A stretch of 64,000 bases of DNA from a virus: the IMG/VR virus record IMGVR_UViG_3300042321_002027. One strand, given 5' to 3'. Positions 10,156 through 31,078 of this stretch are shown here, in pieces (the first letter of the stretch is position 1; each line of letters begins with the position of its first letter). The notes beneath the pieces were generated by a model. The model saw nothing but the letters and a program-made list of their open reading frames with translations. It did not search any database and had not been told where the DNA came from. The position numbers and the translations under genes are program-made.

Positions 10156-10229
10156 GCCGCATTAGTACAATGGCAGTACAGGGGCTTTGTAATCCTCTGA
10201 TGGGAGTTCGATTCTCTCATGCGGCACCA
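10156..10229 (+). tRNA. tRNA-Thr(TGT)
   Basis: cloverleaf, CCA. Confidence 0.85.
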
Positions 10230-11272: not shown

Positions 11273-11328
11273 AGGATCCTTGCAGCAATTAACTTTCTTG
11301 CATGATAGAAAACCAAGCGGATCCTGTT
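11273..11328 (+). ncRNA. CAGCAA-family small RNA, copy E8 (orphan in tRNA cluster)
   Basis: AGGATCC-TTG-CAGCAA...GGATCCT-GTT, same architecture as the 29.1-31.1 kb array. Confidence 0.65.
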
Positions 11329-13878: not shown

Positions 13879-13883
13879 ATTAT

Positions 13884-13977
13884 GCATCCGTATCCACCTT
13901 GGCTACGAACCAAGAGTAAGGTAACTGGAAGTGGCCAGCGATGGCTGATGCAGGTTCGAATCCTGTCGGGTGCTCCA
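13884..13977 (+). tRNA. D-armless tRNA-Arg(ACG)-like RNA with long variable region
   Basis: gcatccg/cgggtgc acceptor, cttgg-CTACGAA-ccaag, T-arm, CCA; only 7 nt where the D-arm should be. Confidence 0.6.
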
Positions 13978-15507: not shown

Positions 15508-15690
15508 ATGACATATTGGGAATACTTTTATGGAAAGTGCACTAAGAAACCCTGTGGTTCTCCCAAATGTTGTGCAGGTTGTGAAGAATGCTTTGGTCTT
15601 AATTGGAAACCATTAGGTCCAAAAACATTTGAAGAGATGTTAGAATACTTTAGAAGCTGCCATAGCTCAGTTGGTAGAGCAGTTGATTAG
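15508..15690 (+). CDS. small Cys-rich hypothetical protein, 3' end overlaps tRNA-Thr
   Basis: AGGA RBS; ORF track. Confidence 0.35.
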   Translation: MTYWEYFYGKCTKKPCGSPKCCAGCEECFGLNWKPLGPKTFEEMLEYFRSCHSSVGRAVD

Positions 15691-15731
15691 TAATCATCAG
15701 GTCGGGAGTTCGAATCTCTCTGGCAGCACCA
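15656..15731 (+). tRNA. tRNA-Thr(AGT)
   Basis: canonical body, loop TT-AGT-AA, CCA. Confidence 0.85.
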
Positions 15732-27685: not shown

Positions 27686-29110
27686 TTAGTAGTCGTAACG
27701 ATCGTTCATTACTGCCTTCAACATGATCCCTTCAGGTGTGAAGTTTTCCATGTTACCGGACAGAACCGCCTTAACGATGGCTGGAGAGAAACCAGAAACA
27801 AGAGCAGTATCGCGCTTGTCGAACTTAACAGGAACGTTGTCCTTTGCGTTAAGGTTCCAGAACACGATCTTAGGCACCTTGTACCCAGCAGCTTCGAACT
27901 TACGCTCGATCATTTCCATCGCTGAGTCGTCGAAACGAACACAAGCATTGAACTGCATATCCGAAAGGATCAACAGCATGTCAGGCATTTCCTCCTGAGG
28001 CACATTACCCTTGACTGCGACATCAAGGATCTTACGCATTGCTGCGTGAAGATTAGTGCTCATACCCCATTCTGAAGCTGACATCTGCTGGATCTTACCC
28101 AGAATGTTGCCCTTCAAGTGCATAAGCTCAGGCTTGTCAGAGAAAGTCAAGAACGTATCCTTGAACTTACCCTTGTTCTTGTCTGCAAGGTAAAGACCAA
28201 GCGAAACAGAAACATCAAGACAAGTAGTCAACGACTTAGAGCCGTAACCACCTGCAGGTGACATCATTGAGCCAGAGACGTCGACGATTGGCAGGATGTT
28301 CGCATCACCAACGTAGTTAGGCAAAGCCTCCCACTGAGCCACGATGTGGTCAAGGTTGGCCTTTTCATAGCTCAGTCGGTATGCACCGATAACACCCTTC
28401 AGTACATCGTATGGGTACACTGCTCCAGCGTTAACCTTTGCAGTTGGATCACCCTTTACGAGCTTCTCCACCCATTCCTTGTACTTTGGCGTATGACGAG
28501 CAAACGCCTTCTTGTAACGTGAGGACGCAACAGAAGGAACGTGGTTGAAGTTGATTTCATCCCACTTGTTCGCACACATGTTCTGCTCGACAACCTTAGT
28601 CAGTTCGACCAGACGCTTACGGTAGTACTTTGGAGTCCAACCAAGGAACGAACGCAGACGAGCCGCATCCTCACCCTTACGTGGCATCCACTTAGCACAC
28701 AGACCATTGCCTGCATCCAAAGCATCCTTGATCAAAGTGAACGCAACTGCCTCAGCAGCTGAGTCCTTGTCAAAGACCAACAGGTCGTCCCAACGACCAA
28801 GCTCAGGGATCTTGCGCATCAAAGCTATAGCGCGGTCCTCGTCCTTGAGAACAAGCTCACGGAGAATGTCGCGGAACACCTTACGCTCACCAGCGCCGCC
28901 ACGAACGTCGCGAGCCCAAAGAGCGATACGTGCAGCAAGATCCTGGTTCTCTACATACGCAGCAGTGAACGCAGGAACTACGTTCTTACCACGCATAGCG
29001 CCGACGTTGAAGAACAAATCAACGCAAGCGGAAGCAGTAGAAGCTCGAGCCTTCATACCGTTCTCGGTACGAGCTTCCTGGTTCTTAACGGCATTAACAA
29101 AAGTAGACAT
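27686..29110 (-). CDS. DUF2828-family protein with C-terminal vWA domain (TROVE/Ro60-like architecture)
   Basis: TENG, DLFF, RDVRGGAGER, GRWDDL, AKWMPR, DVSGSM MIDAS, LSDMQF, FWNL, SGFS. Confidence 0.82.
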   Translation of the reverse strand: MSTFVNAVKNQEARTENGMKARASTASACVDLFFNVGAMRGKNVVPAFTAAYVENQDLAARIALWARDVRGGAGERKVFRDILRELVLKDEDRAIALMRKIPELGRWDDLLVFDKDSAAEAVAFTLIKDALDAGNGLCAKWMPRKGEDAARLRSFLGWTPKYYRKRLVELTKVVEQNMCANKWDEINFNHVPSVASSRYKKAFARHTPKYKEWVEKLVKGDPTAKVNAGAVYPYDVLKGVIGAYRLSYEKANLDHIVAQWEALPNYVGDANILPIVDVSGSMMSPAGGYGSKSLTTCLDVSVSLGLYLADKNKGKFKDTFLTFSDKPELMHLKGNILGKIQQMSASEWGMSTNLHAAMRKILDVAVKGNVPQEEMPDMLLILSDMQFNACVRFDDSAMEMIERKFEAAGYKVPKIVFWNLNAKDNVPVKFDKRDTALVSGFSPAIVKAVLSGNMENFTPEGIMLKAVMNDRYDY

Positions 29111-29126: not shown

Positions 29127-29186
29127 CAACAGATTGAACTTTTTTCAAATTTCAAGTTTGATTTTTTTAGTTGCTGAACTCAATCT
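29127..29186 (-). ncRNA. CAGCAA-family small RNA E1 (Ser-UGA anticodon stem-loop cargo); 5' leader of DUF2828 gene
   Basis: AGAUUGA-GUU-CAGCAA...UCAAA-CUUGAAA-UUUGA...UCAAUCU-GUUG. Confidence 0.72.
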
Positions 29187-29194
29187 AGATTCTT

Positions 29195-29223
29195 AATATA
29201 CTCTACACACTATTTAAAGTCAA
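29195..29223 (-). promoter_or_regulatory. sigma70-type promoter starting transcription at E1
   Basis: TTGACT-N17-TATATT on minus strand. Confidence 0.7.
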
Positions 29224-29337
29224 CGGGTTTCTATTTTTCGGTGGGAATTGAACCCACTACACTCTGTTTACAAGACAGATGCTCTACCAAATGAGCTACG
29301 ATGGCTTACGCCATTGATTGTTTGCTGTAAGAAACCC
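29221..29337 (-). ncRNA. CAGCAA-family small RNA E2 (permuted tRNA-Thr(UGU) cargo)
   Basis: GGGUUUCU-UA-CAGCAA...D-arm, anticodon arm, T-arm...AGAAACCC-GUUG. Confidence 0.72.
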
Positions 29338-29344
29338 AAAACTT

Positions 29345-29755
29345 TTAGAAACTGGAGTTTTCTAGATCAGACATCTTAGCGTCTAGACGGAAAACTCTCA
29401 TCCGAGGAAGAACCGCTACACGAAAATGAGGGATATAATCGCCCTTCTTCGTTTCGTGGTTATAAACCCATTTCGCGCCATAAACCTGTTCAATTTTAAC
29501 AGCCACAGGCTTGTATTCTGTAACAAGGTCATACTTAGTATGACCACGTTCATCCTTGATGATATTACCTTCAATGTCTCTCGACACAACGCTTCGTGAA
29601 ACATTTTGATAATAAGCTCCTACGAACTTACCCTTACGAAACGTCGTAGACTTCCACGATGTACCAGCATAGATAATATCTTCACCGGGATTAATCGTTT
29701 GACCAAACATATTAACGAATGGTACTACCTTAAGATCTGCCATCACTTTCTCCAT
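29345..29755 (-). CDS. hypothetical protein inside RNA array (start probably 29743)
   Basis: ORF track; GGAG RBS. Confidence 0.6.
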   Translation of the reverse strand: MEKVMADLKVVPFVNMFGQTINPGEDIIYAGTSWKSTTFRKGKFVGAYYQNVSRSVVSRDIEGNIIKDERGHTKYDLVTEYKPVAVKIEQVYGAKWVYNHETKKGDYIPHFRVAVLPRMRVFRLDAKMSDLENSSF

Positions 29756-29765
29756 AATTATAATT

Positions 29766-29953
29766 CAACAGGATCGCGTTTGCTTAACGTGCTACTATTA
29801 CACCAAGGACCCATCAGATACACACGAAGACGATTTGCCGAAGCATTCTTACCCATCTTAAGGAACAGCTCCGTATGTATTTGGTGGATCCCCTCGGATT
29901 TGCACCGAGACCTTTCCTTTTCAGAGGAATGCATTTTATGCGGAAACGATCCT
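29766..29953 (-). ncRNA. CAGCAA-family small RNA E3 (circularly permuted tRNA cargo, YrlA-like order)
   Basis: AGGAUCG-UUU-CCGCAU...T-arm, 3' acceptor+ACCA, linker, 5' acceptor, D-arm...CGAUCCU-GUUG. Confidence 0.68.
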
Positions 29954-29959
29954 AAAACT

Positions 29960-30026
29960 CAACGGGATTGCTTTTTTGCGTTTTTGATTAAAAGTCAAAT
30001 GCATAAAAGTTTGCTGTAACAATCCC
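29960..30026 (-). ncRNA. CAGCAA-family small RNA E4 (Lys-UUU anticodon stem-loop cargo)
   Basis: GGGAUUG-UUA-CAGCAA...UUUGA-CUUUUAA-UCAAA...CAAUCCC-GUUG. Confidence 0.72.
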
Positions 30027-30605: not shown

Positions 30606-30681
30606 TGGTGACCCCAGTGGGATTTGAACCCACATCAAGTGTTTTAGAGGCACCTGCATCACCAGATCATGCTCTAGGGTC
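30606..30681 (-). tRNA. tRNA with CUA anticodon (amber suppressor-like)
   Basis: GACCCUA/UGGGGUC acceptor, D-arm, GGUGC-CUCUAAA-ACACU, GUGGG-UUCAAAU-CCCAC, ACCA. Confidence 0.75.
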
Positions 30682-30685
30682 AATT

Positions 30686-30786
30686 CAACAGGTTGTATTT
30701 TCTACTTTTTGATTAGTGTGAGAAATCGAAACTCACGTAGTGACGCCAAAAGGGGTCGCATTTTTATGGTTTGCAGTATACAACCT
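30686..30786 (-). ncRNA. CAGCAA-family small RNA E5 (T-arm-like cargo)
   Basis: AGGUUGUAU-A-CUGCAA...GUGAG-UUUCGAUUU-CUCAC...AUACAACCU-GUUG. Confidence 0.68.
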
Positions 30787-30791
30787 ATGTT

Positions 30792-30882
30792 CAACAGGAT
30801 AGTTTTCTATATTCGCAGAATCTGCAAATGTTGGATTCGAACCAACAATGAACCAATTTGGATCATTTGCTGAACCTATCCT
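30792..30882 (-). ncRNA. CAGCAA-family small RNA E6 (T-arm cargo)
   Basis: AGGAUAG-GUU-CAGCAA...GUUGG-UUCGAAU-CCAAC...CUAUCCU-GUUG. Confidence 0.72.
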
Positions 30883-30887
30883 AAAAT

Positions 30888-31078
30888 CTACGGGATGGTC
30901 GAGTGGACATTAGTTTTATTCTTGCAGAGCCTAACTCCTCTGCCATATTCCTAATTTAGTAAGAACCGAGCTAATCAAAGGGGACTAGCGCCCTCCTGCC
31001 TCCTTTATCAGGACACAAGCGTAAAGAGAAGCCCGAAAGCTTCGTGCTTTGATCAATGATCGTTGCTGTACTCATCCC
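30888..31078 (-). ncRNA. CAGCAA-family small RNA E7 (long multi-hairpin cargo)
   Basis: GGGAUG-AGUA-CAGCAA...CAUCCC-GUAG. Confidence 0.6.

What the first reader, a model, noticed from the sequence alone, without database searches (positions are those of the whole stretch)
29145..29999. Isolated anticodon stem-loops (Ser-UGA, Thr-UGU, Lys-UUU) displayed on the scaffold: possible decoys for anticodon nucleases
Seen: the only structured cargo of E1 is a perfect 5-bp stem with 7-nt loop UCAAA-CU[UGA]AA-UUUGA (29145-29161). E4 carries UUUGA-CU[UUU]AA-UCAAA (29983-29999) and E2 carries UCUGU-CU[UGU]AA-ACAGA (29263-29279). All follow the CU-NNN-AA anticodon-loop pattern. E3 has a 6-nt CUGAAA loop (Phe-like). 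None has a free, chargeable acceptor end. Known: host anti-phage anticodon nucleases such as PrrC and PARIS AriB cut tRNA-Lys(UUU). Inference: non-chargeable anticodon mimics acting as decoys or inhibitors of tRNases, or as sponges for modification enzymes or synthetases.
Basis: partly seen in the sequence, partly recalled or inferred. Interest (0 to 1): 0.82.

Follow-up and report, generated by a model that had tools for sequence, protein, structure and literature searches.

The report
Phage RNAs displaying tRNA anticodon arms
A T4-like phage encodes small RNAs, next to a Ro60-shaped RNA-binding protein gene, that display copies of tRNA anticodon arms which evolution keeps authentic; one type closely matches what the host tRNA-modifying enzyme TsaBD grips, so they are probably baits for host enzymes that read or cut anticodons, but this is untested.

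Summary
The three hairpins are real. Each sits in a 'handle' RNA unit (7-bp clamp plus CAGCAA) upstream of a DUF2828 gene whose model folds like Ro60 (Z 19). Corrections: E2 is a near-complete tRNA body; E3's 6-nt loop is a Ser(UGA) loop missing one base; the AriB cut site is not enriched. New here: E4 belongs to a 113-member type that adds A26 and a covarying 3-bp D-stem mimic, with U36-A37-A38 fixed and position 35 free. That matches the published footprint of the t6A synthase TsaBD, and PrrC needs t6A. Best reading: modification-competent baits for anticodon nucleases (0.4); rivals are modification-enzyme ligands, cleavage sensors, or generic tRNA disguise. No expression, binding or protection is shown. 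I found no paper describing these RNAs; this scan noted the family before on other DNA.

The parts
29130..29186 (-). E1 handle RNA unit (7-10 bp clamp, UCAGCAA box, A-rich linkers); also the 5' leader of the DUF2828 gene
   Evidence: 118 of 156 homologous loci have a unit within 45 nt of the start codon
29145..29161 (-). E1 cargo: bare anticodon stem-loop, Ser(UGA) (S-type); weakly stable
29195..29223 (-). sigma70-like promoter (TTGACT-17-TATATT) just upstream of E1
   Evidence: consensus match only
29224..29337 (-). E2 handle unit carrying a D/anticodon/T tRNA body without a 3' acceptor strand
29263..29279 (-). E2 anticodon arm Thr(UGU), inside the tRNA body, U31-A39 closing pair
29769..29953 (-). 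E3 handle unit; its 5' part can also fold as a cloverleaf ending in CCA (29953-29882)
29914..29929 (-). E3 hairpin with 6-nt loop, a Ser(UGA) loop short of one U; variable in homologues
29963..30026 (-). E4 handle unit (D-type)
   Evidence: z -3.3
29977..30003 (-). E4 cargo: D-stem mimic (30003-30001 with 29979-29977), A26 (30000) and Lys(UUU) anticodon arm (29999-29983)
27686..29110 (-). DUF2828/DUF7788 gene, 474 aa, predicted Ro60-like HEAT ring plus vWA
30689..31078 (-). three further handle units with non-ASL cargo (30690-30786, 30796-30882, 30892-31078)
11273..11326 (+). eighth handle unit inside the main tRNA cluster, non-canonical hairpin

Best explanation
The units are small RNAs clamped by a handle that binds the phage's Ro60-like ring (inferred). 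Their cargo is a selected mimic of the anticodon end of tRNA (shown by conservation). Two builds exist. The bare S-type (E1) shows U36 or A36 loops. The D-type (E4) adds A26 and three D-stem pairs, so that host TsaBD could grip it and write t6A37 (inferred from the match to the TsaBD footprint). Once modified, the arm looks like a host Lys/Arg/Thr tRNA to modification-dependent anticodon nucleases of the PrrC kind. Being uncharged and protein-held, it acts as a competing bait or trap that spares real tRNAs during infection (inferred). The triplet is retuned by single-base changes as host nucleases change.
For: Loops kept far above chance. D-type defined without looking at the loop: 113 of 533 short units vs 0.34 in shuffles; C32 108, U33 111, U36 109, A37 110, A38 110, C25-G10 109 of 113; along a spanning tree position 35 changes 49 times, position 36 three times. 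Both helices show two-sided changes, 0/500 shuffles as high. TsaBD reads 36-UAA-38 and D-stem pairs 10:25, 11:24, 12:23, tolerates 34/35 and does not touch acceptor or T arm (PMC13276492). PrrC needs t6A37 (stated in PMC12409363) and cuts isolated modified stem-loops (PMC1950546). The spectrum is narrower than TsaBD needs (U34 in 94/113) and is led by known tRNase targets: Lys(UUU) for PrrC, AriB, Schlafen; Thr(UGU) for AriB, P2-OLD; Ser(UGA) for VapC. Cargo stems differ from the same phage's tRNA genes, so they are not recent copies.
Against: AriB site not enriched. Literature says only full-length tRNAs are t6A substrates. A cleavable bait is consumed by a multi-turnover enzyme unless very abundant or tightly bound (own reasoning). 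About half of short units lack a canonical loop; E1 orthologues tolerate 6-9 nt loops. Bacterial 31-39 pairs vary, so 'host-like bait versus resistant phage tRNA' could not be shown. The one defence linked to a Ro60-like phage protein in the papers read, Ppl (Bas63 gp130, PMC11482910), is described as a DNA exonuclease (PMC12904381). Counts are of related sequences, so p-values overstate independence.
Confidence: 0.4

Rival explanations
1. The arms are ligands for the modification enzymes themselves. The RNA tethers or sequesters TsaBD (D-type), MiaA (A36 S-type) or U34 enzymes on the Ro60-like ring, as Y RNA tethers PNPase, either to serve the phage's many tRNAs or to leave tRNAs under-modified and so invisible to modification-dependent nucleases.
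For: D-type equals the TsaBD footprint; U36 in 35/36 distinct D arms vs 25/56 S arms; 83 of 87 distinct arms have U36 or A36, the t6A and i6A classes; the phage carries about 30 tRNA genes.
Against: TsaBD ignores 34/35, yet U34 dominates and Ile(GAU)/Thr(GGU) are missing from the D-type. S-type arms with U36 lack the D-stem. One E4 orthologue has C36 (L467). Blocking t6A would hurt phage translation (own reasoning).
Confidence: 0.2
2. Tripwire or repair adaptor: the loop is meant to be cut. Cleavage by a host tRNase changes the particle (frees the ring, creates ends for RNA ligases) or, for E1, changes expression of the gene it leads.
For: E1 is the leader of the gene with its own promoter-like site; jumbo-phage ROT/TROVE proteins are proposed RNA-repair platforms (PMC7824862); Listeria P61 has RtcB and an RNA ligase close downstream.
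Against: E4 and most D-type units are not leaders; leader loops are no better kept than others (24/64 vs 34/73 canonical); I identified no RNA ligase gene among the window proteins I scanned.
Confidence: 0.15
3. Generic tRNA disguise as in YrlA: the arm gives shape, stability or a docking surface for the ring or a nuclease such as PNPase, and the triplet is not read. For E1 the kept element may be a YGAA protein-binding motif.
For: YrlA mimics tRNA and gets tRNA modifications (PMC4201824); phiRo60 RNAs carry CGAA (PMC12135203); E1 orthologues keep YGAAA in loops of 6-9 nt.
Against: Does not explain fixed U36-A37-A38 with free 35, nor avoidance of A34.
Confidence: 0.13
4. The arms act on translation directly, by pairing with AAA/AGA/ACA/UCA codons on ribosomes or by inhibiting synthetases.
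For: Triplets are real anticodons; modified arms would be competent to pair (own knowledge).
Against: Frequent Lys-Arg switching at 35 among near-identical units argues against one synthetase; a bulky ring would hinder ribosome entry (inference).
Confidence: 0.08
5. Decaying relics of tRNA genes caught inside handle repeats.
For: Many cargoes are degenerate; E3's loop has lost a base.
Against: Compensatory changes in both helices with a fixed loop frame; stems unlike the phage's own tRNAs; similar arms in a cultured cyanophage and a mycobacteriophage.
Confidence: 0.04

Closest known systems
Bacterial and phage Ro60 (Rsr) with YrlA/YrlB/Yrn1 Y RNAs (Rfam RF02553; PMC4201824; phiRo60 PMC12135203)
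   Same: Small RNAs with a terminal clamp and a tRNA-like module, encoded beside a Ro60-fold protein on the same strand.
   Different: Different protein family (DUF2828, 16% identity to phiRo60), CAGCAA box instead of GNCGAA, up to eight units per phage with swappable cargo, and display of the anticodon arm, where YrlA shows the D/T elbow.
Class I RNAs of dictyostelid amoebae (RF01414; PMC7919456)
   Same: Short terminal stem, adjacent unpaired conserved box, variable middle, CUGU end, about 60 nt; weak Rfam hits on E1 and E2.
   Different: Scores 19 bits vs cut-off 41.5; eukaryotic promoter element; no anticodon cargo or Ro60-like partner mentioned in that paper.
Phage tRNAs that counter tRNases (T5 tRNA-Lys/Thr/Asn vs PARIS; PMC12409363, PMC10264068)
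   Same: Same tRNA species are favoured; same genomic neighbourhood.
   Different: Those are chargeable, cleavage-resistant replacements; these are unchargeable partial mimics.
Substrates of the t6A synthase TsaBD (PMC13276492)
   Same: 36-UAA-38 fixed, 34/35 tolerant, three D-stem pairs and A26, no acceptor or T arm needed for contact.
   Different: Not a full tRNA; D loop absent; modification not shown.

Membership tests
Ro60/Y RNA | Adjacent protein with HEAT ring plus vWA (Ro60 fold) | tested here: met
   Model pLDDT 75.5; top matches all Ro60: 9KOP Z 19.2, rmsd 4.1 over 393, TM 0.61
Ro60/Y RNA | Protein is a Pfam TROVE member by sequence | tested here: not met
   Only DUF2828 and DUF7788 hit; no PDB sequence match
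Ro60/Y RNA | RNA encoded within 4 kb, same strand | tested here: met
   491 sense vs 4 antisense units; leader unit in 118/156 loci
YrlA (RF02553) | Covariance-model match and GNCGAA motif | tested here: not met
   No YrlA hit at E up to 10; motif not seen in E1, E2, E4 sequences
Ro60/Y RNA | RNA binds the ring and tethers a partner enzyme | not testable with these tools
   Needs biochemistry
Class I RNA (RF01414) | Score above gathering threshold | tested here: not met
   19.3 and 18.9 bits vs 41.5; architecture similar
tRNA | Cloverleaf with acceptor stem and CCA | tested here: not met
   E1, E4 none; E2 lacks the 3' acceptor strand; only E3's 5' part qualifies weakly
AriB (PARIS) substrate | U36AAUC|A41 site | tested here: inconclusive
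   Present in E4, absent in E1 and E2; not enriched family-wide
AriB (PARIS) substrate | D-loop U16 and distal contacts | tested here: not met
   No D loop in E1/E4; requirement from PMC12409363
TsaBD (t6A) substrate | 36-UAA-38 plus D-stem pairs 10:25, 11:24, 12:23 | tested here: met
   D-type: U36 109, A37 110, A38 110 of 113; lower helix covaries
TsaBD (t6A) substrate | Full-length tRNA; t6A actually installed | not testable with these tools
   Not full length; PMC13276492 says only full-length tRNAs are known substrates
PrrC substrate | Modified Lys(UUU) stem-loop is cleaved | not testable with these tools
   E4 has the Lys loop; modification and cleavage unknown

The most novel reading that the evidence does not exclude
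Phages deploy a panel of protein-mounted minimal tRNA mimics that host enzymes hypermodify (t6A via a D-stem mimic) and that then trap anticodon nucleases: an RNA-based, one-base-retunable anti-defence system against tRNA-cutting immunity, and a natural minimal ligand of the t6A synthase.
Probability: 0.3. Interest if true: 0.92.

Novelty: new variant of a known kind. Interest (0 to 1): 0.74.

Why it matters
tRNA cleavage is a common bacterial antiviral strategy, and the phage answers I know of are resistant tRNAs, repair ligases or protein inhibitors. Selected, unchargeable anticodon-arm RNAs on a Ro60-like ring would be a different kind of answer and would give a function to DUF2828, found in 710 sequenced phage records including laboratory phages of E. 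coli, Listeria and mycobacteria. The E4 type makes a sharp prediction that is cheap to test: a 60-nt RNA that binds TsaBD or receives t6A, although only full-length tRNAs are known substrates.

Tried and rejected
No whole genome held. AriB-site enrichment: negative. 'Host-like bait versus resistant phage tRNA' test: units nearly always have A31-U39 while phage Lys tRNAs often have G31-C39, but bacterial tRNAs in three phyla vary too and the host is unknown, so inconclusive. Whether units in one genome avoid repeating a triplet: 3 same vs 6.2 expected of 40 pairs, not decisive. The strongly transcribed region of Listeria phage CKA15 (26,236-26,727; PMC12282133) lies upstream of the handle units, so it is not evidence for their expression. 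An intramolecular pseudoknot between the CAGCA box and the 3' tail was considered and dropped (no linker to span the clamp; no covariation seen). 'G36 never occurs' is true only of C32 loops: a few U32 Pro(UGG) loops exist. Literature searches for DUF2828 and for ASL decoys found no description; two papers were not held. No complex prediction was run (RNA partner not supported).

Full report
Setting. The window is from a T4-like phage (sliding clamp, family B polymerase, UvsX, helicase) with about 30 tRNA genes. On the minus strand, 27686-29110 encodes a 474-aa DUF2828/DUF7788 protein. Its model matches only Ro60 proteins over its full length (phiRo60 9KOP Z 19.2, TM 0.61, 16% identity). Upstream lie seven RNA units, each a 7-10 bp clamp followed by a CAGCAA-type box, a cargo, the complementary strand and a G; an eighth lies in the tRNA cluster.

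Observation. The three hairpins are as described and far above chance (3 vs 0.03). Four details need correcting. E2's Thr arm is part of a tRNA body scoring 52.8 bits. E3's 6-nt loop is a Ser(UGA) loop missing one base, as L082 shows, and it varies among homologues. E3's 5' part can fold as a cloverleaf ending in CCA. E4 is more than an isolated arm (below). E1's stem is marginal by folding energy and rests on comparative evidence.

Is the mimicry selected? From 168 loci fetched by protein similarity alone, a handle finder gave 491 sense and 4 antisense units. Of 135 distinct short units, 45 have a strict CU-NNN-AA arm against 0.7 in dinucleotide shuffles; with relaxed rules 58 of 137 are canonical, 15 near-canonical and 64 other. 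Pooling later pattern scans, 230 units give 87 distinct arms. Position 34 is A in only 2, as in real bacterial anticodons, although cargo is about 46% A. Position 36 is U or A in 83. Stems vary with pairing kept and differ from the same phage's tRNA genes. Close relatives switch triplet by one base: the E1 orthologue in L082 (protein 94% identical) is Thr(UGU). Related arms occur in Synechococcus phage BUCT-ZZ01, mycobacteriophage JoeDirt and a bacterial MAG; Felixounavirus and Listeria phages have handle units with looser hairpins.

Two builds. S-type units (E1) hang a bare arm on A-rich linkers and show U36 or A36 triplets (UGA 26, UUU 24, UGU 22, GUU 11, GUA 10, GCA 8). D-type units (E4) add an A and a 3-bp helix below the arm, equivalent to A26 and D-stem pairs 10:25, 11:24, 12:23. 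That helix was not used in the first selection, yet 38 of 44 have three Watson-Crick pairs against 13.5 with swapped partners, and all three pairs show two-sided changes. Defined without the loop, 113 of 533 short units are D-type (0.34 in shuffles): U36 109, A37 110, A38 110, A31-U39 107, C25-G10 109; triplets UUU 53, UCU 25, UGU 13, GCU 9, CUU 4; position 35 changes 49 times on a spanning tree, position 36 three times. In loci first fetched by a loop-blind scan, 63 of 67 paired 7-nt loops are CU-NNU-AA. The pool is biased towards one lower-helix sequence by that scan, and the sequences are related.

What reads such a shape? The TsaBD-tRNA structures show contact only with the anticodon loop and those three D-stem pairs, a strict need for 36-UAA-38, and no base readout at 34/35 (PMC13276492). 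The match to the D-type is close. The same paper says only full-length tRNAs are known substrates, so modification is a prediction. The spectrum is narrower than TsaBD requires (U34 94/113), which points to a second reader. Lys(UUU) is cut by PrrC, AriB and RorSlfn5, Thr(UGU) by AriB and P2-OLD, Ser(UGA/GGA/CGA) by mycobacterial VapC. Lys(UUU) plus Thr(UGU) make up 20 of 62 distinct arms against 47 of 765 phage tRNA arms. PrrC needs t6A and accepts isolated modified stem-loops. AriB fits badly: its site is not enriched and it needs the D loop. MiaA acting on bare A36-A37-A38 arms is recalled knowledge, not checked here.

Mechanism. Shown: the units, their linkage to a Ro60-fold gene, purifying selection on an anticodon-like loop, and the D-stem mimic tied to U36. 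Inferred: transcription, binding of the handle by the ring, modification by host enzymes, and trapping of nucleases. I put 0.9 on 'selected anticodon-arm mimics read by some enzyme', 0.4 on nuclease bait as the main job, 0.2 on modification-enzyme ligand, 0.15 on sensor or repair adaptor, 0.13 on generic disguise, 0.08 on ribosome or synthetase, 0.04 on relic. A structurally Ro60-like protein of phage Bas63 (gp130) is a proven counter-defence factor, but against Ppl, described as a DNA exonuclease, which neither confirms nor excludes a tRNase role.

Known or new. It works like a Ro60/Y RNA particle but fails YrlA and TROVE membership by sequence, and only weakly resembles amoebal Class I RNAs (PMC7919456). 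Papers note Ro60-like genes beside phage tRNA clusters and guess at Y RNAs but none that I found describes the handle, the arrays or anticodon display. Earlier notes of this scan report the family and the anticodon display in other genomes; a word search found none naming the t6A/TsaD match. Verdict: real, selected, a new variant of Ro60-associated tRNA mimicry; decoy function plausible and directly testable; interest 0.74.

Noticed in passing
window 13883-13977 (+): tRNA-Arg(ACG)-like gene with CCA, shrunken D arm and long variable arm, missed by ARAGORN and Rfam cut-off.
   Followed up: no
window 30606-30681 (-): tRNA with CUA (amber) anticodon right after a handle unit.
   Followed up: no
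window 15656-15731 (+): tRNA-Thr with AGU anticodon (A34), rare in bacteria.
   Followed up: no
window 10156-10229 (+): The phage's own tRNA-Thr(UGU) has U32 and a C31-U39 mismatch; shortened stems are common in related phage Thr(UGU) genes, as reported for P2-OLD-resistant tRNAs.
   Followed up: partly
L468:142-249, L083:822-935, L081:410-527: Permuted-tRNA units (T arm before D arm) begin with an anticodon-loop remnant (Lys UUU, Thr UGU, Asp GUC); 58 of 447 long units have this order.
   Followed up: partly
L178, L184, L215, L232, L263 and others: Recurrent short non-ASL cargo that looks like a small pseudoknot (GCUA ... UAGC loop).
   Followed up: no
L005, L029, L012, L188: Recurrent cargo of a GNRA hairpin plus a U-rich stem with a UGG/GGA loop: Pro(UGG)-like or a CsrA-type GGA loop.
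   Followed up: no
L467:3338-3399: E4 orthologue with Glu(UUC) triplet, an exception to fixed U36; this phage's leader unit has a different cargo.
   Followed up: partly
L163:8750-9660 (Felixounavirus Shy): Four handle units with a variant clamp inside the tRNA array of an E. coli phage, a ready test system.
   Followed up: partly
Listeria phage CKA15: The DUF2828 homologue CKA15_055 was detected in purified virions (PMC12282133).
   Followed up: no
window 30892-31078 (-): Longest unit (187 nt) is conserved with compensating hairpins in L465, L467, L469, L002; cargo unidentified.
   Followed up: no
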